Assembly (NCBI GenBank): GCA_964016885.1 | Contig: OZ024740.1 | Span: forward strand, 217,682,001 to 217,746,000 | Direction: 5' to 3' | Length of the DNA stretch: 64,000 nucleotides | DNA from: Eledone cirrhosa | Taxonomy: Eukaryota | In this document: one piece after another, positions 705 through 58,811 of the stretch | Numbering within the stretch: the stretch's first letter is position 1 | Layout of the letters: every line of letters begins with the position of its first letter | Notes under the pieces: generated by a model | Told to the model about the DNA's origin: nothing | Database searches by the model: none | Seen by the model: the letters and a program-made list of their open reading frames with translations, nothing else | Program-made: the position numbers and the translations under genes

Positions 705-4790
<4,086 letters not shown>

Positions 4791-26565: not shown

Positions 26566-27088
26566 CCCTATCACTTCTATCGCTACATGAACGATGTATC
26601 TTTACTGGTAGAAGTGACAACATCCATATGAATACCATTTGTCTCTTACTTCTTTTGATATGCTTCATGTTCAACAGAAACTTATGACAAATAACTGAAT
26701 CATAATTTACAGCAGTGTCAAATAATATTTAAAAGAACATTTATTTCTAGAAGACAATTCGAGATGAAATTTATAACCAGATATTTTCTTAGAATTTCGA
26801 GTGACATTTTAATGTTTCATAAGAGTTTCCGAGAAAATCTACAAGAATTTTTTCGAAACCTAACTAAAGAAATTACCCTTTAGTCATTAAAATTTACATT
26901 GACAATCTCTCTCTCTCTCTTTCTCTCTCTCACTCTCTCTCTCTACCTGTTTCACTCTCTTCTTTATCTCTCTCTTTCAATCTCTGTCTCTCAGTTCAAT
27001 ATATATATATATATATATATTATGAAGAGAGAAGAAACATTAGATATAATTAGTAATAAGATGTATCATACCTAAACTGCTTCTAAAT

Positions 27089-27178
27089 TCCTCGACTACG
27101 TAGTTTCGTGGCATAATCAAAAACAATACATCACAGAGATATATAATTTTTGTGAGGTCTGCCGACTTATCAAGAGGA
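27089..27178 (-). ncRNA. Type I hammerhead ribozyme (U3-A8 core, palindromic stem III)
   Basis: Minus strand: UCCUC-UUGAUAA-GUCGGCA...UGCCAC-GAAA-CUACGUAG-UC/GAGGA; stem I UCCUC/GAGGA. Confidence 0.8.
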
Positions 27179-27680
27179 TACCTCATTAAGGGTTTCAAAA
27201 ACACGTCTGTAAGATGCGAGATAGAATCCCAAAAGGCGGAGGGGGAGTCAATCACGTGATACAGCGGTCAAGAAACAGAGCTAAGCTTCTTATAACCCTG
27301 AAAAAAATACTACGGAGGCGGAGGGGGTATTTATATCGAGGCCGTAGAAGTGGTGGTTAAGGAGGCAAGAAGTATGAGTAATGGTAGCTTTCCAGCAGTC
27401 ACTACACTTCAAGGGTTACTCGACCAAAGGGAGTTATAAACAATATATAGAGAAACACACATATACATGCGGACACACACATATACATAAATATACCCAC
27501 ATTCATCCTTGAGTTAATGGTGCCAACCTTAACCGATGTTGCTCTATGAATAACTGGGACAAACTAATCCGAATGGATTAGACTGAACCAGTATCAGAGC
27601 TATAAAGTACATTATGAAGAGAGAAGAAACATTAGATATAATTAGTAATAAGATGTATCATACCTAAACTGCTTCTAAAT

Positions 27681-27770
27681 TCCTCGACTACGTAGTTTCG
27701 TGGCATAATCAAAAACAATACATCACAGAGATATATAATTTTTGTGAGGTCTGCCGACTTATCAAGAGGA
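27681..27770 (-). ncRNA. Type I hammerhead ribozyme, second tandem copy
   Basis: Identical to 27089-27178, exactly 592 nt away. Confidence 0.8.
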
Positions 27771-28410
27771 TACCTCATTAAGGGTTTCAAAAACACGTCT
27801 GTAAGATGCGAGATAGAATCCCAAAAGGCGGAGGGTGAGTCAATCACGTGATACAGCGATCAAGAAACAGAGCTAAGCTTCTTATAACCCTGAAAAAAAT
27901 ACCACGGAGGCGGAGGGGGTATGATAGATCTTATTACTAATTATATCTAATGTTTCTTCTCTCTTCATAATGTACTTTATAGCTCTGATACTGGTTCAGT
28001 CTAATCCATTCGGATTGGTTTGTCCCAGTTATTCATAGAGCAACATCGGTTAAAGTTGGCACCATTAACTCAAGGATGGATGTGGATATATTCATGTATA
28101 TGTGTGTGTCCGCATGTATCTGTGTGTTTCTCTATATATTGTTTATAACTCCCTTTGGTCGAGTAACCCTTGAAGTGTAGTGAGTGCTGGAAAGCTACCA
28201 TTACTCATACTTCTTGCCTCCTTAACCACCTCTTCTACGGCCTCGATATAAATACCCCCCCCCCCCCGACTCCGTGGTATATTTTTCAGAGTTATAAGAA
28301 GCTTAGCTCTGTTTCTTGACCGCTGTATCACGTGATTGACTCCCCCCCTCCGCCTTTTGGGATTCTATCTCGCATCTTACAGACGTGTTTTTGAAACCCT
28401 TAATGAGGTA

Positions 28411-28500
28411 TCCTCTTGATAATTCGGCAGACCTCACAAAAATTATATATCTCTGTGATGTATTGTTTTTGATTATGCCACGAAACTACGTAGTCGAGGA
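28411..28500 (+). ncRNA. Type I hammerhead ribozyme, inverted copy (G10.1>U variant)
   Basis: tcctc-TTGATAA-ttcggca...tgccac-GAAA-ctacgtag-TC-gagga. Confidence 0.7.
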
Positions 28501-28745
28501 ATTTAGAAGCAGTTTAGGTATGATACATCTTATTACTAATTATATCTAATGTTTCTTCTCTCTTTATAATGTACTTTATAGCTCTGATACTGGTTCAGTC
28601 TAATCCATTCGGATTGGTTTGTCCCAGTTATTCACAGAGCAACATCGGTTAAGGTTGGCACCATTAACTCAAGGATGGATGTGGATATATTCATGTATAT
28701 GTGTGCGTCCGCATGTACGTGTATCTGTGTGTTTCTCTATATATT

Positions 28746-28798
<53 letters not shown>

Positions 28799-32872: not shown

Positions 32873-32935
32873 TTTTATCTGATGAGGACGTACTGTTGAA
32901 GTTAACTCAGTACCTCTGAAATATGTATAATGAAA
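32873..32935 (+). ncRNA. Minimal type I hammerhead ribozyme (canonical core)
   Basis: ttttat-CTGATGA-ggacgtactg..cagtacctct-GAAA-tatgta-TA-atgaaa; stems I and II pair, short stem III. Confidence 0.7.
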
Positions 32936-34965: not shown

Positions 34966-37632
34966 ATCTATCTATATGTGTATGTATATATATATATATA
35001 TATATAAATGCAAGTTTACCATTCTGTGTGTCCGCTTAAAACTAGCAAACTACCGGACCAAACTCCTCAATATTACATGTACATATTCACTATACACTCG
35101 GACAGGTAACGGTCGAAAAAGGATTACTTTGCAAAGCATGGAATTCATTTAAAATCAATTTATCTTATTTACTAATGAATATCAAAAGAGATTTTTTTTA
35201 TGTTCTCCAGTCTATAGATAAGAGAGTGAGGGATGGGAAGAGAGAGAGTAAAGGATGCGAGAGAAAAAGAGAGAGAGTGGCAGATGGGAGAGAGGGTGTA
35301 AGGGGATGAGAGAGAAAGAGAGAGAGAGTGAGTGTATGGGAGAGAGAGTAAGGGGATGTTAGAGAGAAAGAAAGAGAGTAAGGGATGAGAGAGATAGAGT
35401 GGGAGATGGGCGAGAGAGAGAGAGAGTAAGAAGATGTGAGAGAGAAAGAAAGAGAGTAAGGGGATGAGAGAGAAAGACGATGAAAGAGAGAGAGGCAAAG
35501 TAATCAGCAAGACCTGGAATCGAAGAAAGTAGTGTCATTTAGTGTAAGGTCATGAAGTCAAGTCAAGTGATACTATTGGGCGTGTTTACAATGTCCATCC
35601 CAACAACAGAGAATGTTTTTATTTACGGCTATTTCTGCATACTGTTCGAGGACCAACGTCATTTGAGCATCTTAGGTGCTTCAGAGGAAGGGAGTGTGCA
35701 ACATACCAAGAAGCATGTAAACAGCATGGACTCCTGCATGACAATGGACACTGGAAGAAGTGCCTAAAAGAAGCAGCAATCACTCAAGTACCCAGCCAAA
35801 TAAGACAATTATTTGTTATTATGCTCACGGCATGTGGAATTGATGAAGCTCATCTACTCTGGCAGGAGTACAAAAACAATATGCCGGACGACTATCTACA
35901 CCTAGCCCGAAGACATCATGGCAATATGTATATGGAATATACCCCCAGGATTTACAATCAAGCTCTCTGTGACGTGTCCCATCGAGTTCAGGCAATGAAT
36001 AGCACATTAGCTAACTGCGGGATGCCAGAGCCAGATGAAGAAATAGAGGTAGCACAAGACATTTTTAAGGAGACAAACTACGATATCCAAGCATTGCGTA
36101 AGTTTGTGGATGAAAATGAACCTCGATTGATGGGTGACCAGAAATACGCCTACCACAACATCATCGAAAACATTCAAAATGACAGGAGAGGACTTTTCTT
36201 CATCGATGCTCCTGCTGGCACAGGCAAGACATTCCTCATAAACCTCCGGCTTGCAAAAGTTCGCCAAAAGCAACATATTGCCCTTGCTGTGGCTTCAAGT
36301 CACATCGTAGCAACACTCCTGTATGGAGGAAGAACTGAACACTCCATGTTTAAGCTGCCCATAGATCTCACACGGCATAAACATCAAAAGACATTTTTCC
36401 AACATCAAGAAGAACTCACCCAAGGGCAAGCTTCTGCAAACATGCAAGATAATAATTCGGGATGAAGCTACTATGAGTCATAAAGGAGCAATTGAAGCTT
36501 TGGACCGGACGATAAGGGATCTGAGAGAAAATAGTTGCATAATGGGAGGAGTGACAATGGTTCTTGCTGGTGATTTCAGACAAACTCTGTCTGTAATTCT
36601 TCGAGGGACTCGAGCTGATCAGGTCAATGCCTGTCTGAAAACATCCTATCTCTGGCCCCACTTTCAGCTGCTGAGCCTTACAACCAACATGCGAGTGCAC
36701 TTAACTGTTGACGAACGTGTCAGTGAGTTTGCCATCCAACTACTTAAATTGGGAAATGGACTTCTTGAAAAGGACTCCTATGACCATATTCAGTTGTCAT
36801 TTGGCCATATCATTGACACAGAACAAGAACTGATTGCCAGAGTGTTTCCAAACATTCAGACCAGGCAATGCGATCTGAAATGGCTCCGTGAACGAGCAAT
36901 CTTAGCACCTAAAAATGTTACTCTGAAAGAAATCAACAGAAGGCTGCTGGAGATGTTACCGGGAGAGAAAATATTCTACAAATCAGTTGACACAATCACT
37001 TCTCAAGACCAGGTTGTAAACTATCCAACTGAATTTTTGAACAGTCTTGAACAAGCGGGAATTCCTACACACAACCTGATGCTTGGAGCATCGGTTATGC
37101 TACTTCGCAATCTGGATCCTCCAAAACTTTGTAATGGCACAAGACTCATCATCAAAAATATGATGTCCAATGTTCTAGAAGTTGCAATCATGTCAGGAAA
37201 ATTTGCTGGTGAAAATTGTTTTATTCCAAGAATACCTCTGAAGCCAACTGATTTGCCATTTGAATTTCAAAGACTTCAATTTCCGATCAGGCTCAGTTTT
37301 GCCATGACCATTAATAAATCTCAAGGGCAATCATTGAAAGTCGTTGGGTTGAATCTGGCAGATCCTGTCTTTTCACATGGTCAACTCTATGTTGGCACAA
37401 CAAGGGTTGGGAACCCTGATTGTCTCTTTATTGTGGCACCGCAGGGCAAAACAAATAATGTTGTTTATCCAGAGGATTTGGAATGAGCAATGTTGTAATT
37501 CCTCATTCAATGACAATACCTACAAATCCTAATTTCTTAGTCATGTAGTTTGCAAGGAATTCTGAAGCCGCAAATTTACTGCATGGAGGTACTTTGGAAG
37601 AATGTGCAGGCTTTCCCGGGTACCTCTGCTAT
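34966..37632 (+). mobile_element. Internally deleted Helitron with Pif1-family helicase remnant (35821-37486)
   Basis: DAPAGTGKTFL (Walker A), DEA, GDFRQ, MLLRNLDPPKLCNGTRL, AMTINKSQGQS, SHGQLYV; 3' ccgggtacctctgcta end. Confidence 0.85.
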
Positions 37633-40420: not shown

Positions 40421-43023
40421 TGTGTAAAGTGTATATATATATATATGTGTGTCTGTGATTGTGTGTTTAGAGGTGATACGAGCACATACACTGTTTTCTG
40501 ATAGATGTGTTAATACAAAAATATTGTAATAGATTCAGGTGTCCATATGTCTGTCACATTTGTTGTAATTTACTCATGTAAGAAAATATTTTGAACTAGA
40601 AAAGGTGTTGCACTCAATATATAATAAGTTTTATTTAATATGAGTTCAAAACTCATTATCTTGTGAAACGACATAATATTTTTGAGGGCCCTGAGAAAAA
40701 AACATTAGATATTTTAAAGAAAAGAGTTAAACATTTACATCGTTAAGTAGTATATCTAATTGTTATAGATACAATAAAATAATACAACAGTTTATGAACA
40801 AACAGAAATAATTATGATTGAAATCTAACTATCTTGCGAAACCCCAGAATGTTTTGAGGGACCTCACTGTGGAAAATACAGCATTGAATATTTGAAATTG
40901 TTTACATTAATGCCAAGAAGTGTTTAACTTTGATATCGTTAAGTATTGTTATATATAATTGATAATAGATTCTATATAAATAGAAAAATCAATGATGTAC
41001 ATTAAAGCTATATATTGAGATGATAATGTTATTCTTTTTACAGATGAATGTACCCATAATGGAAGAAGGTATGAAGGTACATTTAGCATCGACTGTAACA
41101 CGTGTGTGTGTCTTGAAAGTGGACGAGCTCAGTGTTCAAATAAGATATGTGACTATGGACAACGATCAACATGTTGGTATGAAGGTAGACGTTACACAGT
41201 AGGACAGACAATCCAACAGTCATGTAATACATGTGTATGCAGAGCCAATGGTCAAATGGATTGTACAAAGAATACATGTCAGTGTACATATAAAGGACAA
41301 AATTACAATATTGGCCAGAGGTTTAATGAGGATTGCAACCAATGTGAATGTTTATCTAGTGGTATTGTACGGTGTTCTAACAAACGATGTCAATGTTTTG
41401 CCAATGGAAGAACATATCCAGTGGGGGCTACCTTTCAAAGGGAATGTAACACTTGCAAGTGTGACATTAACGGCAGAATAGTGTGTTCTGACAACATATG
41501 TAAATGTTTTGAAAATGGAAGATCTTACCCCATTGGTGCTACATTTAGCAAGGACTGCAATACATGCACATGTCAACAAAATGGACAGTTCAAATGTACA
41601 AATAACCCATGTACTTGCACCTACAACAATATGGTCTATAATTTCGGCCAACAAATCAGGAACGGTTGTAACACCTGCACTTGTCAACAAAATGGACAGG
41701 TCCAATGTACAAATAACCCTTGTCAATGTACATACAACGGTAAACGTTATGATGTTGGTTCTATATTCTACAATGATTGCAACAAATGTCAGTGCCATGA
41801 TGATGGAAGAGTCCAATGTGAACAGAAAATATGCTCCAAACCATGCGTATTCAACGGACAAACCTATTCTGTGGGAGAATCGTTTAAAAATGACTGCAAT
41901 ACATGTACATGTGGACAGTTTGGTCAAGTAGGATGTACTGAAATGTACTGCCCTAAAACATGCCAATACAACGGAAAAATCTACACAGTTGACCAAATAT
42001 TCAAGGCTCAAGATAATTGCAATACATGTCGATGTTCAGCTGGGATGGTCAAGTGTACCAACTTAATATGTGGTCAAGTGAGTATGGTTTTTATTACTCC
42101 TTTATTGTCTCAAATATTAACAATTCTATCTTTCCTCTTATGTAATTTGTAGTCCTTTAGACACATTACACAAAGATATCATTACAATTTCCCTGTGTAA
42201 TTACTGCTGTGATATAAGAAACAGGGGAACATCATCATTAGCATAGCTACCATTTAGTGAATGTTTGTTAGAGTATGACAGAGGTGATGGCATTCATTCA
42301 TTGCTCCCTTTTGACCGATGAGATTAATTTTAATAATCTTTCACATAAATTGCTGCATATTGCTGCCGGTAGGTATGACGGGAACATGGAGAAAATTCGA
42401 GAAGGCCGATATTCTCTGTAGGACAGGTAACGTGTAGAGGGTTTCTGTGGATCCTGGTGGGCAGACACAATATGTGATAAGAAATGGAGATACGATTGAG
42501 TTGGAATTGTCTGAGTGGAGGTGACATGAAACCTGCCATCTTAGAAGCTCTATACCATTGTAGTAGCAGTAGAAAGGGTAATGAAATAAGTCATTACGAC
42601 AGTGCTTAAGAGACTGGGATGTGACTTTAAACCGATTAGTCAAGAAAATTTATCTGGATGTAGAACATCATATCTCCAGTCGTATGTCAAAATAGATGGC
42701 AATGTTATAGTCACTTTTATATAACTATGAAATATATATTCTCTTTCAAAGAAATGCTTCAGTAGGAATGTTATTGGACTTACCAACATTCTGGTTAAAG
42801 GTTCAAACGTTCACTGCTGTTTCGTTTAATTTCCAACTAAGGGAGTTAATTCAACGTAACTTCGTTCCTTTATTTATCGCTAATATATATGTATATCGAT
42901 ATGTTAAGGAATTTTACCTATATCTAAATTGTTATATTTCGTAAATCATTTATTTGATATTGTTTCAATATCAATAGTAATACAATATAAAACTTTATTT
43001 CATTACAGACTGGATACTACTAA
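39371..43023 (+). CDS. Secreted cysteine-rich protein with 9 pacifastin-like/half-VWC modules, copy 2; join(39371..39431,41044..42077,43009..43023), 369 aa
   Basis: Same exon/intron structure and splice sites as copy 1; exon 2 is 777 bp (7 x 111) shorter; open frame; AATAAA at ~43158. Confidence 0.85.
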
Positions 43024-43230: not shown

Positions 43231-46200
43231 TGGTCTAATCGGACGACCTTTTGCTCGCTTCTGTAAGTCTCTTTATTTACCTGCCATAATTATTTATTGT
43301 TAAATTTTTGTTGTTGTGTAAAGGATATAAGCCCTTGGACTTTGCCCTGTGAAGGGATAAGTACAATATTTGGGCCTTTTGGCCCAAATATTCGAACCTT
43401 TTACATTTAAAAATTACCGAAAAAAAAACATGGCTGAGCCATGCGCCCAGCGATATGTCTGCTGACGTGCGACAACGACGCAAAAGTTGAGAGGAGTGTT
43501 ACGGCGAACACAGAAATTGATACAACAAACACCACCACAAACAACGTGAACACAGACAGCAATGACAACAAGCTTGCGAACATTAATTTTGAAAAAAATG
43601 ACCACACAAACCACAACAGTAACAGCGACAACCAAAATACAGACAACAGAAAAAATGACAACAAATGCAACAACAATATTAACAACACTAACATGAAAAC
43701 AAATAGCGACAACACCAACAGCAATGATACAAATTGCACCGGGAACAACAAAAACAGCAGCAGCAAAGTCACAACCAATTGCAACAGTGATAACAGCAAC
43801 AACGCCAACAACATCATTTATAGCAACAGCAACAGCACAAACAACAAGACCAGTAGCAATAATAGTGGAGGAAACAAAATCACACTCACTGATTACCCGA
43901 CGAAGTGATGACATAATGTTAGTCCCGTTTTACTGCAGAAAAAAATTGCAACGGTCAGGGTAACCCAGGTTCCGCCCTACGTACTTGGCTGGTCGTCTCT
44001 GTTCTTGCAGGTACAGAAGTTGGGGAGAGAGGACTGGTCAGGTATTGGAATGGAGATGCTCATCCCAACCGACCAGGCTTTCATCAGCGCTATTCCCGAC
44101 GTTATAGACCTCTGGAATGGCTCCCAACTTCCCATATCAGTAGAAGGCAGGTGCCCAAAGTGCTTCAACTATGGATCGAAGTCTCACCTCAAGGCCTTCT
44201 GCCCAGAGAAAATAACAAAGGCGAACATTCCGCCCCCCCCCCTTCCAACGCCGGAACCGCTGCCATCAGTCACAGAGCAGTCAACGAAAAAGTCGGGAGC
44301 TTCCACAGAGAATAGGAGGACAACGTCCGTGGCGCCCACACCAAAGCCATGGACAACAAAAACAGCGGCGGCAGCTGCAGCAACAGAACCAGGCTCCACC
44401 ATCACAAAAAACAACAAAGAACTCATACCCATCCCCGACCTCTCACAGTCGGACATGGAGTCTGAGGCGGCTGAGGAGTGGAAAACGGTTGTCAAAAAAC
44501 GAAAAAACAAAAAAAACGCAAAAACACCACAGCTTCTCCCTCCAAAAGCGAAAGCAAAGAAAGAGGGGTAACGGCTGTAAGGAGACTTGAAGCAACACCA
44601 CCACCATCACCACCACAAGCATCACCACCACCAACAACCACACCACCACCAACATCACCACAAACAGCAACATCGCAAACACAACAAAGCACACACACCC
44701 AACAGCAACAAAACTACGGCTACCCCCCAAAAAAAGTACACAGCCATAAACATTGCACACAAAGGAACATTAAAACACCACACCGATATTTCAGACTTAA
44801 ATTACCACACCCCACCAACACCAAGAACATTACCCAAAAACATTACAATTGTCGACATTAAACTGGAAGACTAAACAATTAAAGCAAAAATTCCCCAACG
44901 CAGTTAGGGATTTCAGGCGGTCACTCTCCAAAAGAATATATAGAGATATCACCTTGGAGACACCCATGACCAGCCGAAGGGAAGGTTTTACTGTCCCTTC
45001 CCCACACGATCAAGGTAAGTGATCCTTTCTCACTTACCCTGTTTCCTCATCTAGCATGGGCGTACTTAGAATAGGCAGTATAAATGTAGGTGGCCTGGGG
45101 TCATCTTGGAAGCAGGGTCACCTGCTGAACGACATCAGGTCACTAAACATAGATGTGGTGCCCATCAGCGAGACCAGAATCTCCGAAGTACGAGCCTTCG
45201 CACCGATCTACGACGGCTACGATGTATACGCATCTCCCAGTCGTCCGGGATCGGAGGTAGGAGTTGCTGTGCTCTTTCGGAGAGGTTTGTATCTCGCCAT
45301 ATGGGCCATCTACCTGGACCCAGAAGGTAAGTCGGTGGTGAAGTACGTGACCAGCAGCGAAGGCAATGCTTTCAGGCTAGTAACCGTCTACCCCCCAACA
45401 GGGGCAGGACGGCCAGATTTCTTCAGACGTCTAGAGACCTATCTTGGAACGTCCCGCTATTTAGTGTTAGTGGCCGACTGGAACGGTATATTAGATGCAC
45501 GCTGGGATTATGTGGGGTTTAGTAGACAGGAGGGTGGGCTTAAAAGCCTCAACAACCTGCTCATACCTTTTGAACGGTCTGACAGGTATAGAATGGATTA
45601 TCCGAATGTGCCAATATGGACATGGGCAAACCGCATCGGGTCATCCAGATCGTATGTAGATACGGTATTCTCTAGGGAAACAGATAAGGCTAGTGTAGGC
45701 TGTCCACAATTTAAATAGTCGACTATACGGACCACAAATTTGTGATGTGTGAAGTTGTCTTAGATAGACCCCATAGGCAAGGGCCCGGTTACTGGAAGCT
45801 GAACGCGTCGTACCCGACGCGGAAAGCTTACAGAGACCAGATTTGCGAATTAGTTAAGCGTGCATTGACGGGTGCGATCGTCAAAAACAGGTGGTGGTTT
45901 ACTGCGAAAAGGGCTATTAGAGTAGAATCGATAAGGTTTAGCAAAGGAGTAGTGATAGAGGACAATAGAGTAGAAGGAAAGCTAGTTAGAAAGCTAGAAA
46001 AAGCGTTTAGGACACGCATCCCAACCGACGTGATTACGGCGAGATTGGAACTCGACCAATTCTTCAACTCAAAGCATGAAGGCTGCGTTGTCAGAGCTAG
46101 AGGGCGTGCTTTGAGACACGAGGGGACGAAAGCCTTTCAATTGCCTCGGGTGGTGGAGGCGTGACGTGGTAACAAATCCACAATTCGGTCTTTGCCTGAT

Positions 46201-47572
46201 CAAAGCGGGTGCATGTTGCTCGAATCCGAGCAGATGTGTGCAGCTTTTCAACAGCACTTTGCTCAATTGTTCGGGAGCAGCGGCTGGCCGGATCGGAGTA
46301 TGGTCTTCGGTGCATACCTCAACGGACTGCCGATGTTATGGACCACAGCACAGTGCTGCGAAAAGTCGATAACAGCAGGTGAAATACGAGAACAGATGTC
46401 TGACTGCACGTGGGGTATATCGCCAGGTTTCGATGATCTGCCCTACGAGCTTTATGCGTACATGCCATACTTGTTCGGCGACCTCTTGGCAAATGTCTAC
46501 TGCAAACAAGGGGGACGTTATAGACAACTTCAGGCCCATAACTCTGCTAAACGTAGAGTGCAAAATTTTGGGAAAGGTGTTAGCAAAGATAATGGCGCTT
46601 GTCATGAGTGATCTGATGGGAGAGGCGCCAGACATGCGCCATTCCGGGCAGATCCATCCATGACAACCTCCATCTAATGAGATACATCATAGAGAGGGTG
46701 GTTAAGCATTAGATAGGGTCGACCATCGGTACCTGGCTGCGGTCCTCGGGGCGGCCGGCTTCGGGCCCGTTTTTAGGGGCTGGATCGCTGCGATGCACAG
46801 CGACATTTGCTCGATTGTTAGGGTAAATGGTCACCTGTCGTAACCGTTCAGCATTATGCGCTCTGTCCACCAGGGTTGTCCCCTCTCGTCCCTCTTGTAT
46901 GTACTGTCCCTCGAGCCATTACTGCACAAATTGGAGACCATGAGGGGGGTACCACGCGAACTGAGATGCGGGAGATCCGTGACAGCTTACGCCGACGAAG
47001 TCATCGTGGTGTCGTCGAGCACCAAACACGTCCAGATGCTCGGCACCGCTCTCAAGGAATACGGAGCGGTGAGAGGAGCAAAGATAAATCGGGAAAAGTC
47101 GGTGGGCTTGCAACTCGGCACCTTGAGAGGAAAGTCCATACTGTCCAATAGCGTCGTGGGGCGCTGGACGGAAGGACCGGTTAAATTGCTTGGGGTCTGG
47201 TTCGGTCAGGTCCTTCAGATGGAGCAAAATGACGAGCAGGATAGCCTCTCTCATCCAGAAAAGGGCCGAGAGGAGGCTGTCTCTGAAAAGTCGGGCGGAG
47301 GTGGCGAATGCGTATATCGCGTCCGTCATCTGCTACCACCTGACCGTCGTGCCTTTCCCCAGCCTAACTCTGATCAAAATGGTGCGCCTTCTCTTCCGCG
47401 CTTTTTGTGGAAGGGACGTGCTCCCATGGTCAGACGATCCATTTGCTGTCAACACCCATTGCGTGGAGGACTAGTCATGCCGTGGCTGATGATGCGCAAA
47501 CATGCGCTGGGGCTGCGACATCTCTGGTGCTTCCTTGACGTTGAACAAGTGTGGTCGCCGTTAGCCAGACGC
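43231..47572 (+). mobile_element. Tx1-like element (same insertion as 4976), degenerate ORF1 and ORF2, 3' end lost
   Basis: Same junction after the gene's 3' end; APE 45056-45718, RT QGCPLS/YADE; truncated at ..gccagacgc. Confidence 0.85.
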
Positions 47573-47576
47573 TAAC

Positions 47577-48088
47577 GGTTGGAAACGGTTGCTTCCAACA
47601 GCACCCGCTGGAATGAGTGTTTGAGGATCAGACCCCACGATCCTCGATCCTCATTCTTGATAGTTGTACATTATTCTATGTATTAAATATGCACCTTTGA
47701 TGAGTTGTGGTACACCTGAGCACTGTACACAATAATTTCATTATTATTTTAATATTACATTCCTAACAATTTCACGATCGAAACCCCCTTCAGGGGTGAC
47801 CGACCCTTAAAAATCAACAAAGGTGATACCTGTGATAGTGCAGTTTGAGAGGATCTTGTGTGTGAACTTGCTGAAAGTAACGGGCATGTTTTGATCTTGT
47901 TAGATTTCATCAGCGAAGAATATTCAATTTGCAAATTGGCCTAATAAAGATATGGGTAAAGTGTAATATTTTGGTTAGCTAATGAAGGAGATTCTACGTG
48001 GTCGTTAAACAACTAGAAATAGCAGCTAAATTTCCTTCAATTCTCATGCTACTGTCGTAAAAAAAGACACATTATATAATGTGTCTTT
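47577..48088 (+). repeat. Segment paralogous to 24204-24965 (without the SINE)
   Basis: Near-identical sequence from gttggaaacggttgcttcc to gacacattatataatgt. Confidence 0.85.
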
Positions 48089-48089
48089 A

Positions 48090-49688
48090 ACGTGACAGTA
48101 ATGGTGTCGAGCACCTCGCAAATCGGGGAGATCGGCACTTTACTGGAGGAATACGAAAGGTTCACAGGAGCGAAGCTGAACCGGGACAAATCCGTCGGTT
48201 TGCAACTCGGAACGTGGAGAGGCAAACCGATGCCTTCCGATGGCGTCGTCGGTCGCTGGACGGAAGGACCGGTAAGGCTGCTCGGGGTCTGGTTTGGTCC
48301 GGACCTCCAGGTGGAGAAAAACTGAAACGAGGTGACTGCCAAGGTGTTTGCGCTCACCCAGAAGTGTGCCGAGTGCAAACTATCCTTGAAAGGTCGAGCG
48401 GAGGTGGCGAACACTTTTATAGCTTCCGTCATCTACTACCGCTTGACCGTCGTGCCTTGCCCAGCCAACACGCTCAACAAAATGGAGCGCACGCTCTTCC
48501 AATTCCTTTGGAAGAAACGGGTTCCTTTGGTGAGAACATCCATCTGCTGCCAACACCCTTCAAACGGGGGGAGGGGGGGGGGGGGATGCCGTGGCTGACG
48601 ATGAGCAAACAGGCGCTCAGGCTGAGGCACCTCCACGTATTCCTCACCAGACAACCGGTGTGGGCCCCGTTCGTGAGGCGAGCCTTTCCACGACTCCTCT
48701 CGCTGACCGAGCTGCTGTTCTGGGTCAAGCAAAGACCGAGGAAAATGGGCGACTGGCACATCGAATGTGCTCAGGCGCTCACAGTCCTCTGGCAAACGGA
48801 CCCGGCGATCAGTGGAGACTCCACTTCGACATTCTATAGAGGGTTGGTCCGCAGCAAGTGCAACGACATGCTCGGAGAAACTGGCCAGTCTGTTCGGTAG
48901 GACCTTCCGCCCGGGACAAATGGACAACTTCCAAAAGTCCCTGGCCTGGCAGTGCTACCGAGGAGCTCTACCAGTTCGGGACAAGCTCTACCGACACGGG
49001 CGCCCGGGTAGGGACCCTTCGAAAAAGATCTGTCCGAGATGCGTGCGCGACGAAGAAACCGTCGCGCACGCATTTGTACACTACCCGGGCGTTACCAACC
49101 TGTGGGGCTATGTAGAACGACTGTTGTCGCGGGTGGGACCAATCCAGTTGACCACCAAGTCCATAGTCATGATCAAACCGCCACCCTCCTTCAAAAAGGA
49201 GGCAGAGGCGCTTTTCCTATGTGTTATGGCTATGGTGAAAGAGATTATATGGTGGACGAGGTTAAAAGGGCTGAGGTCAGACACCTTTCTCTCCGGCGAG
49301 CAACTGATTCGTTCTTTCAAATATCATTTTGGAAGAAGAATCTGGATGGAGAGAGAGGTGCTGTACCCCAGCAATTTTATAAAAGGTGGGTGAATGTGGC
49401 AAAGATGGCCCGAGTGGTTGACCTTCTCTCTATATAAGCCTGTAGGTTGAGGAAAAAGAGGAAGAGAGGAAGGGAGTACTCAGTCTTGGTGCTCCTGGAG
49501 ATGAGGGTTGTACATTTGTTCGGGGTGTGTACAACCCCTGTGTAACGCCTCCCCTCTATTGGGGATATCAATTGTTATTTGTTATTTTATTTAGTTTTAT
49601 TTTCATATACCTGTATGTAAACTCCCCATTTGTATTTGTCCCCTTCTTTTGTGCCATAGTGGCTAATAAAGAAATCTCTCTCTCTCTC
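48090..49688 (+). mobile_element. 5'-truncated Tx1-like element with (CT)n end
   Basis: KSVGLQLGTWRG, LSLKGRAEVAN, CPRCVRDEETVAH; AATAAA then tctctc. Confidence 0.85.
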
Positions 49689-49689
49689 C

Positions 49690-51465
49690 ATTACAAAATA
49701 GGCAAGTGGGGTGTTATAGCCCTAGTCTACCCACCCACCCCGGGTCATTATGGGGTTTGAGGGCGAGGTAAGTCCTACGTAATCGGTGTTTACATGCAGT
49801 AACCAGTTCATCTTTCTTGTTTAGGAGTTGGTCCGTCGAAAACAGCATTTGTAATGTTTCCTCCGAGCATAAATTGCATGGACGGCGTCCTCCCGTGTAA
49901 GAGTTGGCTCTGGACAGTAATTTCCAAGTGAGATCATAGTTGAGTTTGGCTATAAGGAATAATCCTATAGCCAAACTCACCGATATGTTGCCTGCTTTCG
50001 GTGGTGGATTGTACCGTGATGATGGGCTCCTTACCCTTAAAGGGTACAACCCCAGTAGTACAGATCGGGTCCGTAAACAATTAATCAGCTTCTTCCGCGA
50101 CTGGGGATTTAAAATAACCCTATAAACGTCCCTGACCCGAGTTAATTTCCTGGACGTCACCCTCGATCTCAATAATGACCTGTACTACCCATACAGGAAA
50201 CCCAATGACAACCTGCACCACATCCACCGCCGATCTAACCATCCTAGGAACATCACCAACAACCTAGTCAAAAACATCTCCCTCCGTATATCCCGTTTGT
50301 CAGCTAATGAGAAGATATTCGATGAACATGCGCCTTACTACAACCAGGCCCTTAAGCGGAGTGGTTTCCGAGAGGAAATATCCTACTGTCCAGCTCCCAT
50401 TAGCGGAACCAGCAGGCGACACCGCCGCTCACGCAATGTAACATGGTTCAATCCTCCCCACAACGCCGAGGTGACAACTCCCATCGGGAAAATTTTCTTT
50501 AGGCTCATTGAAAAACACTTCCCACCACAACACCGCTATCACAACATAATTAACAAAAATACCATCAAACTCTCTTACAGCACTACACCTAACTTCGCAC
50601 AAAACATCGTCTCCTCCAACAACAAAAAGCTCAACCCCGATGGAAGAAACAACCTAAATAGCAGTGGAGAGCCGACCAGGAGGTGCAACTGTCCCGATAG
50701 ATCCAGTTGCCCCCTCGACAACAGATGCAGAGACCGTAATGTGATCTACCAGTGCAACGTGAGCACGGACACCTCCAACAAAGCCTATATAGGATTAACC
50801 GCATGCGACTTCAAGACCCGGCTATACCAACACAGACATACCTTCCGAAACCCGGCCCGGCGTCACGCCACTACACTTTCGGGCCACATATGGGACCTCA
50901 AGGACAACAACATCAACTATGATCTCACTTGGAAATTACTGTCCAGAGCCAACTCTTACACGGGAGGACGCCGTCCGTGCAATTTATGCTCGGAGGAAAC
51001 ATTACAAATGCTGTTTTCGACGGACCAACTCCTAAACAAGAAAGATGAACTGGTTACTGCATGTAAACACCGATTACGTAGGACTTACCTCGCCCCCAAA
51101 CCGCATAATGACCCGGGGGGGGGGGGGGTAGACTAGGGCTATAACGTACGATCTTTCATGTAGCTTGTATAAGACTTTTTGTTTCGTGGCGGTACCCTTA
51201 GAGTTAGCACTAGTATTTTTTTGCGGGACCCTGAATTATATTCTCGTACTAGTTTACTTTCTTGCACTGGGTGGTTGCTGGCCCTGTGATTGGGGTAGAA
51301 ACCTTTATTATTTTCGTGGTAGTCTCTTTAGTATTCTGGTCCCCCCCCCCTTTGTTGACCAGTCACCGTACGATACACGCACTTATACCTCGTATAAGGG
51401 TCCCTTTATTTCCGTCCCACCTAGTTTATTTCTATTATTATTATTTATTTTTTTATTCTCCGTTA

Positions 51466-51496
<31 letters not shown>

Positions 51497-51981
51497 TTTT
51501 CTATTCTTTTATTCACTTATTTGTTTATTTATTTATTTATGTATTTCTTTAGCCTAGCAATAGCGAGAGACTTATGTCTTAGTAACCAGATTTGGCTTTT
51601 TTTTTCTCTCTCAGTACCTTTTATAGTTTTACCTTTCTTTGTTCTACTTACCGTTTCGACCTCCTCCCCCTCCCCCTCCCCAGTATCCTCTTTGACCTCA
51701 CACCCAGCTGTAGCTGGCACTACCAACGCATGAATGGGTCTACACCACCCCCTCTCCCTTTTTCTCCTACCGGCAGGTTTAGCTACCCCTTCCCCCACCA
51801 AATTGCCATCACAGATTTACTACTAACTTGTGATGTGACCAATCCTGGTGATTATCTCTTTGACCATATATGGAATTACCCCTTGATAAGTTCGGCTATT
51901 TAAATACCAGAATAAATTTTCATTCAGTACAGAATTAGCCGTCGAAACGGCTTGAGCTCAGCCGTCGGGGTCTTACTTGTT

Positions 51982-51985
<4 letters not shown>
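49690..51985 (+). mobile_element. Penelope-like element (RT end + GIY-YIG endonuclease) with inverted 5' segment
   Basis: GLYRDDGL, NFLDV, PYRKPN, WFNPP, VIYQC..AYIGLT..FKTRLYQH, CNLCSEE; ~49712-49943 is the reverse complement of ~50913-51145; ends in (TA)n. Confidence 0.9.
51878..51971 (+). ncRNA. Type I hammerhead ribozyme at the 3' end of the Penelope element (U3-A8 core)
   Basis: acccc-TTGATAA-gttcggcta...tagccgtc-GAAA-cggct(tgagctc)agccg-TC-ggggt. Confidence 0.75.
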
Positions 51986-52054
<69 letters not shown>

Positions 52055-52060
<6 letters not shown>

Positions 52061-52920: not shown

Positions 52921-55900
52921 ATAATAATAATGATTTCATTTATTAGCCACAAGGGCCGACATGTAGGGGACAATACAAAGACAGGGACAGTGGGGGTTTA
53001 CAATAAGGTCGAGTAAAAGTGCACAATGGCAAGACTAATTTAACAATGAAAATATAAAAATATAAAATAAACTATGCATAAATATAACAAAATAAATTCC
53101 CCGATAGGGGGTGGACGACCCTGGGGTGATTCGGGTACCCCACCAATCCTGAACCACCCTGTGCTTCTAGGGCAGCCAGGAGAGCACCCCTCTCCTCAAG
53201 TTAGCCAGCCTATAGGCGCATGGTCAGAGTAGGCTCATTCACACGAGCCATTCTCGCCACATTCACCCACCTTTTAGCAAATGTACTGGGGGGCAGCACT
53301 TCTCTCTCCACCCTCACCCTCCTTTCCAGGTGAAACTTGAAGAAGTTGATGAGGGATTGGCCGAAGAGAAAAGTGTCTGTCTTTAGTCCTTTCAACCTGG
53401 TCCACCATATAATCTCTTTCGCAACTGCCACCAGACAGAGGAAAATGTCCTGCTCTTCCTGACCTAAGGAAGGTGGCGGCTCGATCTTCACTATGGACTC
53501 GGCCGATAGCCGGATTCGTTCCACACGCGACAGTAGCTGTTCGACATAACTCCACAAGTCAGTAATGCACGGACATTGGACAAGTGCGTGCAGAACGGTT
53601 TCGTCGTTCTGTGCGCATCTTGGGCAGGTCCGTCTGACAGCACTTCCGTGCCTGTAGAGTTTATCCCGAACCGGCAGTGCCCCCCGGTAGCACTGCCAAG
53701 CGAGGGATTTCTGGAAATTGTCCATCGTCCCCGGCTCAAAAGTCCTCCGGTACAGACTGGTCAGTTCGACTTCGTCGAGGCCCAAAGCTTCTCCGAGTGC
53801 GTCATCGCACTTGCCCACCACTAATCCTCTATAGAACTCGAGAGTGGAAGTTCCACTGATCGCATTGCCCGCTTGGTAGAGAGCAGTGAGTGCCTGGCAA
53901 CATTCCAGGTGCCAGTCACCCAGTCTCAGTCTCTTCTTGACCCAGGACTGCAGCTCAATTAAAGAAATGAGCTGCGGAAAGGCCCGTCTGATAAACGGCG
54001 ACCACACCTGTTCACCATTGAGGCAGAATATCTGAAGATGTCGCAGCCTCAACGCATGTCTGCGCATCATTAGCCAAGGCATGCCCAGCCCTCCGCGTAG
54101 AGGGTGCTGGCAGCAGATGGACCGCCTCACCAACGGAACTTGTCCCCTCCACAAGAATTTGAAGAGGAGCCGTTCCAACTTGACGAGGCGCGGACGGGGG
54201 CAGGGCACGACGGTTAGGCGGTAGTAGATGACGGACGCGATGTACGCATTCGACACCTCCGCGCGACCTTTCAGTGATAGCTTCCCCCCAGCCTATTTTT
54301 GGGTGAGACTGGCTACTCTGCTCGTTACCTCGTCCCAATTCTTTTCCACCTGGAGGTCTGGTCCGAACCAAACCCCGAGCAACTTTACCGGTCCGTCCGT
54401 CCAGCGCCCCACGACGCTGTTGGACGGCATGGGCTTGCCTCTCCAGGTTCCGAGCTGCAAGCCCACCGACTTTTCCGGGTTAAGTTTGGCTCCTGTCAAC
54501 CTTTCATATTCCTTTAATAAGGTGCCGACCACCTCGATTTCTGAGGTGTTCGACACCATCACGGTGATGTCGTCCGCATAAGCCGACACTGCCCTTCCAC
54601 GTCCCGGTTCGAGCGGGATGCCCTGCAACAGCCCCAGCTTCCGCAGTAAAGGCTCGAGAGGCAATACGTACAGAAGGGAAGAGAGAGGGCACCCTTGACG
54701 GACCGATCGGGAGAGCCGAAATGGTTCCGAGAAGTGGCCATTAACTTTGACCACCGAGCGTGTGCCGCTGTGCATTGCAACGATCCAGCTTCTAAAGACA
54801 GGGCCGAAGCCAGCTGCTTTGAGGACAAACTCCAGATACCGATGGTCGACCATATCAAATGCTTTCGATTGATCTAAATTGATCAGTGCCCCACCGAAGC
54901 CAGGTTTACACCCTACCCTCTCTATGATGTATCGCATGAGGTGGAGATTGTCGTGTATGGACCTGGCTGGGATTGCGCAAGTTTGCGCCTCCCCAACCAA
55001 ATCCTCGACGACAAGCGCCAATCTCTGCTAACACATTGGCCAAAATCTTAAACTCTGTGCTGAGCAGAGTTATGGGCCTGAAGTTGTCTAATGTATCCCT
55101 CTTGTTCTCGTCTTTCCTTATCAGCGTCACCACTCCCCTGCTCACAGAACTGGGAATACTCCCATTCTGCTGCCAGTTGCAGTAGAGTGCTTCGAGGAGT
55201 TCGGAGAACAAGTCTGGCATATTTACGTAAAGCTCGTAGGGCAGGCCATCCAAACCGGGTGACTTGCGCCTCATGCAGCCGACAAGGGTGTCCTGAATTT
55301 CGGCTGAAGTAATCGGCCTTTCGCAGCGCTCAGCGTCGACCGTCGAGATGCGCGGCAAGCCATCAAGGTAGGGACTGAAATCCGCTACTCTCTCTGACTC
55401 GCCACTCTCCCTGAACAACCGAGCAAAGTGCTGGCGAAAGGCCTCACACATCCGCTTGGAATCGCTTATCTCGTGTACGTCTCGGTCCGCCAAAGACCGA
55501 ATTGTGGTTTTATTACCACGCTGCGCCTCCGCCACGCGGGCCCATCGAACAGCTTTAGTTCCCTCGTTCCTTAGCGCACGCGCCTTAGCTCTGACAATGC
55601 AACCTTCGTGTTTGGCATTGAAGAAATGGTCTAATTCCATTCTCGCCGCTAGCACGTCAGTTGCGATGCCACTACAAATAGCCTCGTCTAACTTATCTAC
55701 CAGCTCCCCCTCCTTTCTATTTTTCTCTAACGCTAGTTCTTTGCTGAACTCTATCGAAGTTACTCTAATCTCTCTTTTGAGAGCCCCCCACCATCTGCTG
55801 TTGATGATCCCCCCTGTTAACTTTTGCTTAACTAAATTGTTGACTCGGTCCCTGTAAGCCTTACGTGCCGGAAATGACATGTTCAGCTTCCAGTAACCCG

Positions 55901-58811
55901 GTCCTAACCTACGCGTTTTATTTAGGTCGACCGTACAGATCACAAATTTGTGATCTGAATAGGCGACCGTTTTAAAAAGTGGACAGCCCACACTATTTCT
56001 ATCTATTTTCCTAATGAAGATCCTGTCTATATACGATCTAGATGACCCCATTCGGTTGGTCCATGTCCATACTGGCACATTGGGGAAATCTAGTCGATAC
56101 CTGTCAGACAGTTGGAACTGGCTGAGTAGGTGCTTGAGGCTTTTGCACCCACCGCTCCTATCGGCTATTCCCACACAATCCCAGCGTGCGTCTAAGATGC
56201 CATTCCAGTCCCCCGCTAACAGTAAAGGGCGAGACGTACCCAGAAAGGTCTCCAGGCGCCTAAAGAAGTCAGGTCGTCCGGCCCCTGTAGGGGCGTAGAC
56301 GGCCAGCAGTCTAAAGGCACCACCTTCGCTACTGCTCATATCCAAGACCACCAACTTACCGTCCGGGTCCCGGAAGATCGACCTTACCTCGAGATCCAGT
56401 CCTTTCCTAAATAGCACTGCCACCCCACCCCCCCATTCCCGGCATGCTAACAGATGCGAAGATCTGATAGTCGTCGAAAATGGGGGGCTAGTGCGCGCGT
56501 GTCGGAAATTCTGGTCTCGCTTACGGCAATCACATCCATTTCCAGCGACCGGAGGTCGTTGAGCAGGCGACCCTGCTTCCAGGGTGACCCCAGGCCGCGA
56601 ACATTTAAACTTCCTACTCTTAATATGGCCATATTGGTAAGCTAAGAGAGAGAGAGGGAAGGTTTACTTACCTCCCGGGTCTTGTGAAGGTCGGGTGGTT
56701 CGACCTCCATGGTTGGTGGGGTTTCTTTTGGGAACCCCTATAAAAGTCTTGATGTGGATTTCACATTCGGGGTTCCCACGTCTTGAGGAAAGCTCTCTCG
56801 AATTTCTTTGAAGGAATTGAGTGACATTCGGACCAGAAGCAAATCTTCTGGCTCGCAAAATGTGCTCATTTCAAAAATCTCCCCCTCTGTTTGAATGTCC
56901 TCGCTTCGCGCTAAGAGGGCCATCAGTTTATGGTTGGCCCTTCTGACAAGCACGAAGTTTTTAACATTTTGTTGGTGTGGTTTTATTTGTTTTAGTTTTG
57001 GTGAAGGGGGTGGCGATGGTTTTGGTGGTGTTGTTTCGGGTATGTCTATGTTTGTTGTAGGTGTGGTGTCTGCAATTTCAGGTATTTGTGTGTTTATTTG
57101 TACTTGTGTTTGTTTAGGTTGTTTGCGTTTCGGGGATTGTGGAGGTGGTGTCGATGTTGCTGTTGGTGATGATGTTATTGGGGAAGTGTTTGCGTTAGTG
57201 GTGTCTGTATTTTTTGTTGTGTGTGTTTTTGTGTTTTGTTGGGGCTTTTTTTTTTGTGAGTTTTCTCTGCTTTTTTTGCACTTTTGGGTTTTCCTTCATC
57301 TTCGCTGCTGGAAGACAAAGGGTCTGTGTCTGTGAGTGTCTCTGTGTCTGTGTGTGCGTTTATTGTTTTGTCTATGTGTATAATTGGGGGTGTAGGAGAG
57401 CTTTCTTCGTTTTCTCCTTGGATTGGTTTTGGTGTTGGTGGTGATCCGGCTGCTTTTGATGTTGGTGTCCGTGTTTTTGTTGATGTTGTTTTTGGTGGTG
57501 GTGATGGCGGTGCAGCTTTCCGTGCTGACACTGGCGTTGGCAACAAAGGAGGTTTGCGACCCCCTGCATTTTTGCGCTGAGGGCAGAAGGCTTGAAGATG
57601 CGTTGCTTCCCCGCAGACGAAGCAGCGTGGCCTTCTTCCGTCAATCATTAGTTGGATTGTTGTCCCATCCTGCAGGCGGGCAAAATCCGGGATGTTATTC
57701 ATATCTTCCGGTTTCATTTGGAGAAGAATCTCCAAATCCATTCCGGACCAGTCCTCTCTCTCTGTCCTTTTGATGTCTAGGAGGGCAGTGTCTGTCCCCT
57801 CCTCGATTACGCATCCCAGCAGCCACCATATGTTCATTCCTGGTGGGATGCTGGGAATGCGTACCTTCACTGTCCTTTTACCCATATAGGACGGATGCAT
57901 GATAATGCGTTCCGTTCTGCAGGGGGTCACCGAGTGCTTAATAGCGAAGGCCTCGGTTTTGAACAGTACCGAACTGTTTGCCTCTTGCTTTGTACTCTAT
58001 GTTACTTCCGATGTACTCCAAAGCAGCCTCTACCTCTGCTTGGCTCGCAAGTTCCACTTTTCGTGTCTGCACCGAAATACATCGAAAGAGCACCGTCCTC
58101 CTTTGCATGGCCGCTATTGCCTCGTCCGGGATGGTCAGGTTTTCCCAGGACTTCTCCCGTTTAATTAGCCTCCACGCTTTGGCCAACTGTTCGTCTTTAT
58201 CGCTAATATCAATATCAATATTCAATAAGCGCTTTGTTTTTGCTGCTGCTGCCGAAAATGTGGTGTTTCTGATGCTCTTATTGTTGTTGTCATTCTTGCT
58301 GTTGCCACCGCCATCCTTGTTTACATTGAAGCTGTCAGTGTTATTGTCGTTATTGCTCTGAGTTGTTGTTGTGGTGGTGGTGGCGGTGGTGGTGATGTCG
58401 TTTTCAGATGATACTGCTGCTATGGCAGAAGGTTGTGATGGTAGCTTTTGAGTTTTGCCTTCACATTCAGTAGAGTGGATGACAGGCATGACTGTAGCCG
58501 TCGTAGTCGTGGTGAAATCTGCAGTGGCTGCCTTTAAACTTTTGACCTGAACGTTGTTTACCGTTTCAAGGTCGAAAATTTCCATAATTTTCTTTTGGTG
58601 GGGAAGCGATTTTTTTCGAAATTTTTAAAAATAAATCTGAATATTCGGGCTTAAAGCCCGAATATTGAGAGGTATCCCTCTCTTTAAATCAAGATGTGTA
58701 CCTTAAGTTTCTTTAACGACAAGAAAATACAAAAAAATGACACTTTAAAACAGCTTAAAGTTACGAACCTTTTCCCCCTCAGATTTGTACTGTCTTCACA
58801 CATGTGCGTCC
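52921..58811 (-). mobile_element. Near full-length Tx1/L1-clade element (ORF1 from 58585; ORF2 56632-53210, frameshifted)
   Basis: ORF1 CFVCGEATHLQAFC; APE SLNVRG/SETR/GDWN/SDH; RT QGCPLS, YADD; C-terminal CPRC; (ATT)n at both ends. Confidence 0.9.

What the first reader, a model, noticed from the sequence alone, without database searches (positions are those of the whole stretch)
51878..51971. Penelope element carries the same unusual U3-A8 hammerhead: plausible autonomous partner of the retrozyme
Seen: just before its (TA)n end the Penelope has acccc-TTGATAA-gttcggcta...tagccgtc-GAAA-cggct..agccg-TC-ggggt. It shares the core variant, a long stem II starting G..CGGC, a (TA)n flank and a divergent inverted layout with the 27-28 kb repeat. 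Inference: both belong to one PLE lineage, an autonomous/non-autonomous pair.
Basis: partly seen in the sequence, partly recalled or inferred. Interest (0 to 1): 0.75.

Follow-up and report, generated by a model that had tools for sequence, protein, structure and literature searches.

The report
Hydra-Penelope hammerhead; retrozyme pairing unproven
A hammerhead-shaped RNA motif, predicted to cut itself, sits at the end of a young Penelope-type jumping gene; the nearby non-coding repeat is likely copied by enzymes of this same class, but the odd core shared by the two is common in this genome, so it does not single this element out as the repeat's partner.

Summary
The motif at 51878-51971 is a real type I hammerhead fold with a U3-A8 core, in the terminal repeat of a young Hydra-clade Penelope family (A). 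The 27-28 kb repeat (B) is a 592-nt non-coding hammerhead tandem unit (retrozyme). The specific pairing is not supported. U3-A8 is published for Schistosoma Penelope elements and here outnumbers C3-G8 (about 34,000 against 24,000 pattern matches after controls). Long stem II, (TA)n flanks and inverted arms recur in many families. A and B share no sequence above shuffles. What they do share is an insertion footprint (one short and one long fixed end: 32 of 40 A, 66 of 71 B two-armed copies) and a CTC...GAG stem 6-10 nt behind each end, likely an RT start signal. Two other autonomous Hydra families (F4, F5) have it too, and B's distal stem matches theirs better than A's. So B is likely moved by Hydra-clade enzymes; A is one of at least three candidates. 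A's demonstrable non-autonomous offspring are its own tiny half-hammerhead copies (45,900 matches). The scan noted B, the signal and these copies earlier on other DNA. No cleavage or RNA data were obtained.

The parts
51878..51971 (+). Type I hammerhead fold of Penelope family A: U3-A8 core 51883-89, 54-nt stem II domain, 6-bp stem III with a palindromic loop, predicted cut after 51966
49955..51983 (+). Right arm of the family-A insertion: 5'-truncated ORF, 3' UTR (445 nt missing at 51145 relative to a full 3629-nt unit), hammerhead, and 17-nt tail ending at the short fixed end
49967..51136 (+). Truncated RT-thumb plus GIY-YIG endonuclease frame of Hydra type (CxCx5C linker, CxxC and CxH motifs); interrupted by a stop at 50123-50125, so this copy cannot make the protein
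49688..49943 (-). Inverted left arm of the same insertion (ORF end and start of 3' UTR), cut short at a (CT)n tract beside a LINE
51984..52055 (.). (TA)n target tract at the 3' end
27016..28752 (.). Two-armed insertion of retrozyme family B (592-nt unit); the minus arm 27922-27016 ends 78 nt past the cut site, the plus arm 27918-28752 ends 251 nt past it
27681..27770 (-). Family-B hammerhead, U3-A8, 59-nt stem II domain, palindromic 8-nt stem III
27089..27178 (-). Second family-B hammerhead, 592 nt downstream on the same strand
28411..28500 (+). Third family-B hammerhead, with G10.1 changed to U
27541..27600 (-). Proximal start-like stem of B (GCTC...GAGC), beginning 7 nt behind the short fixed end
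27418..27434 (-). Distal start-like stem of B (ACTC...GAGT), beginning 7 nt behind the long fixed end; resembles those of F4 and F5 more than those of A

Best explanation
The motif is a hammerhead fold, predicted to self-cleave, in the terminal repeat of a young Hydra-clade Penelope family, and the 27-28 kb retrozyme is likely mobilised in trans by a pool of Hydra-clade reverse transcriptases of which this family is only one candidate. Shown: the 3629-nt cut-to-cut unit of A and the 592-nt unit of B both insert at microsatellites as two opposed arms, one ending at a near and one at a far fixed site downstream of the cut. Each fixed end lies 6-10 nt before a CTC...GAG stem, also in families F4 and F5. 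Inferred: the protein cuts both strands in (TA)n, binds that stem in an uncleaved or circular RNA, and starts reverse transcription internally at the two sites, one per DNA end. Any RNA with the stems can then be copied, whatever its hammerhead core. U3-A8 is a compensated swap that recurs in many families and carries no information on partnership.
For: Footprint: 32 of 40 two-armed A insertions and 66 of 71 two-armed B insertions have one short and one long end; F5 and F4 also have two fixed ends. Signal: CTC starts 6-10 nt after all 10 ends examined (A, B1, B2, F4, F5; 9 of them at 7-10 nt) and is closed by GAG[CT][AC], against 108 of 10,523 background positions for the 7-10 window. The same stem is visible in the published coral Hydra-2_Amil sequence. 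Internal initiation at two sites, extension of both strands and dispensability of hammerhead cleavage were shown in vitro for a Poseidon element (PMC11167929). Non-specificity: U3-A8 patterns 30,261 and 8,643 (controls 4,475 and 433) against C3-G8 14,859 and 10,634 (controls 629 and 583). No A-B homology: 10-100 of 100 shuffles reach the score; stem II z from -1.0 to 0.5. B distal stem scores: F4 25 and 23 (0 and 1 of 2000 shuffles), F5 17 and 33 (257 and 0), A 12-19 (37-1725). Ages from arm-to-arm difference: A 1.8%, F5 1.7%, B1 2.1%, B2 0.66%, F4 0.84%.
Against: No cleavage, expression or transposition assay. The fixed ends used were marked by me from observed junctions, B1 and B2 are not independent, and the first pair of the stem is mismatched in B2 and F4. 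Shuffle counts are inflated because windows were anchored on the shared motif; only the ranking is meaningful. A overlaps in age with B1, the subfamily in this window. One looser alignment ran through both hammerheads (6 of 300 shuffles), and a C-rich 21-nt stretch of the A 3' UTR matches B (8 of 300). One direct A-B junction exists (L136). Only four Hydra families had tails available (F6 one site only); F2, F3 and others were not resolved. F4 dating rests on 4 insertions, and A, F4, F5 and B1 samples are top hits, biased to young copies.
Confidence: 0.65

Rival explanations
1. A is the specific autonomous partner and ancestor of B; the hammerheads are homologous and the rest has diverged beyond recognition.
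For: Same TTGATAA core and similar stem II base; same 8-nt register between end and CTC at A's far site and both B1 sites; overlapping age of A and B1; weak alignment through the hammerheads, 6 of 300 shuffles; one A-B2 junction with 2-nt microhomology (L136).
Against: No homology of the units. B's best downstream match is another ORF-less hammerhead family, L128 (z 3.7-3.9, 0 of 200 shuffles, best of 14 clusters), and A scores below zero. The core is the majority type. L136: the A arms differ by 3.7-3.8% while the B part is 1.0% from its nearest copy and B2 arms differ by 0.66%, so B probably came later; A-F4, F5-B, F5-F4 and F5-A junctions occur too. B2, the commoner subfamily, is younger than most sampled A.
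Confidence: 0.12
2. B has a specific partner, but it is another Hydra family (F4 lineage, F5, or one not yet found).
For: B's distal stem resembles F4 and F5. B and F4 share the GAGYAA closure at both sites, whereas A has GAGYAC. F4 has an intact 784-residue frame, 99.6% identity among top copies, a long stem II and a palindromic stem III like B, and its age matches B2.
Against: B shows no unit-wide homology to F4 or F5. F4 is C3-G8 and F5 lacks a canonical hammerhead. F5 is not enriched beside B (7 of 60 B loci, 4 of 60 A loci, 4 of 30 C3-G8 loci). No Penelope with a B-like stem III was seen in 30 fetched of 52 pattern hits.
Confidence: 0.18
3. B is a satellite or degenerate terminal-repeat relic spread by DNA-level mechanisms, with no need of a Penelope enzyme.
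For: Tandem units; the satellite route is discussed in bioRxiv 10.64898/2026.07.22.740005.
Against: Dispersed short insertions (65-2684 bp) with fixed, paired ends at microsatellites, 66 of 71. The monomer folds strongly (z -5.07, 0 of 100 shuffles).
Confidence: 0.05

Closest known systems
Hydra clade of C-terminal EN+ Penelope-like elements (Craig et al. 2021, PMC8557442; e.g. Hydra-1_Obim, Hydra-2_Amil)
   Same: RW[K/R] and DKT motifs, CxCx5C linker, CxxC and CxH motifs, no CCHH pair, (TA)n targets, hammerhead in the terminal repeat, inverted 5' arm, tail at one end.
   Different: All 26 Hydra rows of their File S2 have a C3 core and short stems; A has U3-A8, a 54-nt stem II domain and a 6-bp stem III. 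The unit is 3.6 kb, against mostly under 3 kb.
U3-A8 minimal hammerheads of Cercyon Penelope elements, Schistosoma mansoni (Cervera and De la Pena 2014, PMC4209133)
   Same: Same core covariation in a Penelope terminal repeat; about 1,300 genomic hits there.
   Different: Those lack a real stem III and are thought to work as dimers. A has a stable stem III and is predicted to fold as a monomer. In this genome U3-A8 is the commoner core.
Metazoan non-LTR retrozymes (Cervera and de la Pena 2020, PMC7229834; Li, Clavereau and Pollet 2026, bioRxiv 10.64898/2026.07.22.740005)
   Same: B: non-coding tandem unit with one type I hammerhead, strongly self-paired; Penelope elements are the proposed mobilisers.
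   Different: B has no detectable homology to the terminal repeats of the three Penelope families tested, whereas 24 of 57 Xenopus families matched known elements, nearly all Penelope-like. The link here is the end footprint and the start-like stems. Circular RNA not tested.
Poseidon element of Anolis carolinensis in vitro (Frangieh et al. 2024, PMC11167929)
   Same: Two internal start sites downstream of the hammerhead that define the tail; AT-rich targets; both strands extended.
   Different: Different clade; its starts lie in an AC-rich stem-loop inside the ORF. No non-autonomous RNA was tested, and no CTC...GAG stem is described.

Membership tests
Type I hammerhead ribozyme | Core N3-UGA-N-N8-A / GAAA / UH with a 3-8 Watson-Crick pair | tested here: met
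   U3-A8; kept in 67 of 76 whole motifs
Type I hammerhead ribozyme | Three helices, stem I open, G10.1-C11.1 and A15.1-U16.1 | tested here: met
   Rfam models do not detect it
Type I hammerhead ribozyme | Self-cleavage after C17 | not testable with these tools
   No assay; no RNA holder listed
Hydra-clade Penelope-like element (family A) | Single ORF with RT and C-terminal GIY-YIG endonuclease | tested here: met
   Open frames up to 801 residues in other copies, read by eye against Hydra-1_Obim; Pfam gave no family
Hydra-clade Penelope-like element (family A) | RWK, DKT, CxCx5C, CxxC and CxH motifs; CCHH absent | tested here: met
   By inspection translations against section 11 of PMC8557442: RWR, DKT, CNCPDRSSC, CNLC, CKH; one cysteine inside the GIY-YIG core
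Hydra-clade Penelope-like element (family A) | (TA)n insertion, terminal repeats with hammerhead, inverted arm and tail | tested here: met
Hydra-clade Penelope-like element (family A) | Placement in the Hydra clade on an RT tree with reference sequences | not tested
   The tree holds only 9 in-genome rows, no references
Non-LTR retrozyme (family B) | Tandem non-coding unit with one type I hammerhead per unit | tested here: met
   592-nt unit; longest frame 75 residues
Non-LTR retrozyme (family B) | Accumulates as circular RNA and self-cleaves | not testable with these tools
   No RNA run available
Specific autonomous/non-autonomous pair A-B | Shared sequence ancestry of B with A's terminal repeat | tested here: not met
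Specific autonomous/non-autonomous pair A-B | Shared features restricted to A and B (core, long stem II, (TA)n, inversion) | tested here: not met
Specific autonomous/non-autonomous pair A-B | Shared cis signal at the reverse-transcription start | tested here: inconclusive
   Shared, but equally with F4 and F5, which match B better
Specific autonomous/non-autonomous pair A-B | Contemporaneous activity | tested here: inconclusive
   A overlaps B1 (1.8% and 2.1%), as does F5 (1.7%); B2 (0.66%) fits F4 (0.84%, 4 insertions)
Specific autonomous/non-autonomous pair A-B | A protein copies B RNA | not testable with these tools
   Needs the in vitro priming assay

The most novel reading that the evidence does not exclude
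Hydra-clade Penelope enzymes recognise one small clade-wide RNA element, a U/A-rich start tract followed by a CTC...GAG stem and present twice per unit. Many unrelated retrozymes in this genome carry it and are thereby copied by a shared pool of enzymes; the hammerhead is a passenger whose core swaps freely and can be lost (F5) or halved (45,900 mini-copies of A). This names the cis signal and three candidate enzymes, at least one with an intact frame, for the long-assumed Penelope-driven mobilisation of animal retrozymes.
Probability: 0.5. Interest if true: 0.62.

Novelty: new member of a known kind. Interest (0 to 1): 0.33.

Why it matters
That Penelope enzymes move animal retrozymes has been proposed in 2020 and 2026 papers but, in the papers read here, not shown. 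The pairing offered in the finding would not settle it, because the shared traits are generic. The end footprint and start-like stems do give a concrete test: three Hydra proteins, one 592-nt RNA and two stems to mutate in a published in vitro assay. The result also warns against using a hammerhead core variant as a lineage marker.

Tried and rejected
Rfam scan: no hammerhead. Pfam: no family for either A protein. RNA evidence: no RNA holder listed; the contigs laid are of unstated kind and say nothing on expression or cleavage. B as an internal-deletion derivative of A: rejected. B as the terminal repeat of an unseen Penelope: a pattern for B's stem III with a different stem II base gave 52 hits; the 30 fetched first showed no ORF in register, and 19 of 121 B insertions have a Penelope ORF within 1.5 kb, all but two behind a microsatellite. 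F5 as B's parent because three B loci lay beside F5: rejected; 0 of 29 further F5 loci held B and there is no enrichment. The L136 A-B junction as a template switch: judged more likely a later insertion with deletion, not excluded. Copies starting at the predicted cut site: 0 of 75 incidental A arms (nearest -6 and +8). A multiple alignment of the four tails was uninformative. The most abundant U3-A8 family could not be tied to an ORF. F2, F3 and F4-related 3' ends were not recovered. Sequence look-ups in earlier findings and the near-place look-up returned nothing.

Full report
Observation. The motif is present exactly as described: stem I 51878-82/51967-71, core TTGATAA 51883-89, stem II domain 51890-51943, GAAA, stem III 51948-64, UC, predicted cut after 51966. 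It folds into the three-helix form at an ordinary energy (z -1.10). A strict descriptor finds it and two motifs in the 27-kb repeat, and nothing in 200 Markov-simulated windows. Rfam misses it. Of 76 distinct whole motifs of this family in fetched loci, 67 have the same core, GAAA and cleavage pair; 3 have a mismatched C3/A8.

Family A. The window copy is 5'-truncated, has a stop at 50123-25, an inverted left arm and a 445-nt gap in the 3' UTR. The genome (3.0 Gb; probably a cephalopod, my inference from likeness to Hydra-1_Obim and from earlier notes) gave 2,626 first-look candidates, the 40 scored being 98-100% identical. Other copies have open frames of 680-800 residues and a cut-to-cut unit of 3,629 nt. 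The motifs RWR, DKT, CxCx5C, CxxC, CxH and the lack of the CCHH pair fit the Hydra clade as defined in PMC8557442 (section 11, passages, and parts of the supplement read). I did not place it on a tree with reference sequences; the in-genome tree separates A/A2, F5, the F4 group and the F2 group (9 rows; two fragments under 200 residues left out).

Family B. The 27,016-28,752 repeat is a two-armed insertion of a 592-nt unit with one hammerhead per unit, no frame over 75 residues and a strongly folded monomer. It has three subfamilies; B1 (this window) and B2 are about 85% alike. 79 of the first 100 listed long-stem U3-A8 matches are B, 12 are A lineage and 9 are others (counted by eye). Of 121 distinct insertions, 19 have a Penelope ORF within 1.5 kb, and only L394 and L136 abut Penelope sequence directly. 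It meets the sequence definition of a non-LTR retrozyme (PMC7229834, passages read; bioRxiv 10.64898/2026.07.22.740005, parts 1-3 of 5 read).

Testing the four shared traits. Core: U3-A8 is already reported in Schistosoma Cercyon elements (PMC4209133, parts 1-2 of 4 read). Here U3-A8 patterns give 30,261 short-stem and 8,643 long-stem matches (controls 4,475 and 433), and C3-G8 patterns 14,859 and 10,634 (controls 629 and 583). The long U3-A8 pattern fixed position 7 as U, and the short class is dominated by one family. Among 329 motifs with full geometry in fetched loci, 7 of 15 clusters contain U3-A8 and one holds both states (7 C3-G8, 1 U3-A8). Long stem II: 11 of the 15 clusters, 6 of them purely C3-G8. 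(TA)n flank and inversion: general to Hydra elements in print and seen in many families here. Among autonomous Hydra families, F6 has a short-stem U3-A8 motif, F4 a very long C3-G8 motif, and F5, the closest relative of A found outside its own lineage (53% identity), none that my patterns detect. All 26 Hydra rows in the published table are C3. So the core does not track the clade.

Homology. BLAST finds nothing between A and B beyond microsatellites. Local alignment of circularised B against the 5' part, 3' part and whole unit of A is reached by 10-100 of 100 shuffles. The stem II interiors score z -1.0 to 0.5, and downstream of the cut A scores below zero, while an ORF-less U3-A8 family (L128) is B's best match for both subfamilies (z 3.9 and 3.7, 0 of 200; best of 14 clusters). 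Against this, one looser alignment passed through both hammerheads (6 of 300) and a 21-nt C-rich match exists (8 of 300). With the number of comparisons made I treat these as weak.

What really links them. Copies of both families end downstream of the cut site, at two fixed places: about +17 and +97 in A, +78-85 and +237-251 in B. In two-armed insertions one arm takes each: 32 of 40 for A, 66 of 71 for B. This is the Penelope 'tail', which for a Poseidon element reflects two internal reverse-transcription starts, with both DNA strands extended and hammerhead cleavage dispensable (PMC11167929, parts 1-3 of 4 read). The same stem follows F6's near end and is in coral Hydra-2_Amil. Paper searches turned up no description of this stem or of a named Hydra-retrozyme pair; the library lacks most subscription papers.

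Which enzyme? The signal is clade-wide, and B's distal stem ranks F4 (25, 23) and F5 (17, 33) above A (12-19). F4 has an intact 784-residue frame and 99.6% identity among top copies; F5 has 492 pattern matches at its ORF start (30 of 30 fetched are F5). Arm-to-arm differences date insertions: A 1.8% (22), F5 1.7% (19), B1 2.1% (20), B2 0.66% (32), B3 3.9% (7), F4 0.84% (4). B has thus been active across the lifetimes of several Hydra families. One locus (L136) joins an A arm directly to B2 and obeys the long/short rule, which a template switch would produce. But its A arms are 3.7-3.8% apart while the B part is 1.0% from its nearest copy, and similar junctions join A-F4, F5-B, F5-F4 and F5-A, so later insertion with deletion is the likelier reading.

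A's own offspring. The 3' half of A's hammerhead has 45,900 exact matches (control 0), while only 6 whole TTGATAA motifs of A fall in the 17 Mb holding the first 100 (variants with other cores not counted). In loci not chosen for A, 49 of 75 arms begin 31-54 nt upstream of the cut, inside stem II, and none at the cut. Contig depth rises 20- to 30-fold over the same stretch. These 90-240 bp two-armed copies lack the core's 5' half, so they cannot form the ribozyme in cis (inference); an internal transcription start is my inference, and it agrees with note e1-9570153.

Verdict. A real motif and a new Hydra-clade family with a precedented core and an unusually large fold. B is a retrozyme likely moved by Hydra-clade enzymes. 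The specific pair is unproven, and the traits cited for it are not diagnostic. That U3-A8 retains catalytic activity is recalled from the hammerhead literature and was not confirmed by any search (PMC7151607, passages, did not address it).

Noticed in passing
genome-wide; e.g. L149, L278, L123, L209: Tiny two-armed copies of family A that begin inside stem II and lack the core's 5' half; 45,900 exact matches to the 3' half.
   Followed up: partly
L315, L307, L310, L314, L297, L311: Miniature F5 units in which the 5' tail (to about +200-243) joins the last 55-165 nt of the element: internal-deletion derivatives that look like retrozymes at birth, without a canonical hammerhead.
   Followed up: no
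L271-L278, L291-L320 (family F5): A young autonomous Hydra family with two fixed ends and both stems but no hammerhead that my patterns detect; a degenerate core-like stretch lies near its end.
   Followed up: partly
L342, L322-L340 (family F4): Very young Hydra family (99.6% among top hits, intact 784-residue frame) with a C3-G8 hammerhead whose stem II domain is about 88 nt.
   Followed up: partly
L136:3042-7548: A insertion whose right arm is joined by a 2-nt microhomology to retrozyme B2; template switch or later insertion with deletion.
   Followed up: yes
L121-L123 against L142, L144, L096: One long-stem hammerhead family holds both U3-A8 and C3-G8 members.
   Followed up: partly
L171-L198: The most abundant U3-A8 family (13-nt stem II), mostly short inverted pairs; no ORF tied to it.
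   Followed up: partly
window 32873-32935: A C3-G8 hammerhead-like match in the loose scan that failed the strict one.
   Followed up: no
window 2008-3918 and 41019-42152: Two near-identical cysteine-rich repeat exons about 39 kb apart with different repeat numbers (VWC/pacifastin-like is a recalled label).
   Followed up: no
window 19448-22564 (minus): A 1038-residue open reverse-transcriptase frame of a non-LTR retrotransposon.
   Followed up: no
window 35548-37486: Helicase-like frames resembling Helitron Rep/helicase (recalled label).
   Followed up: no
window 14002-17432, 45023-49393, 53210-56663: Several copies of an endonuclease-RT LINE family, one lying against the left arm of the Penelope insertion.
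   Followed up: no
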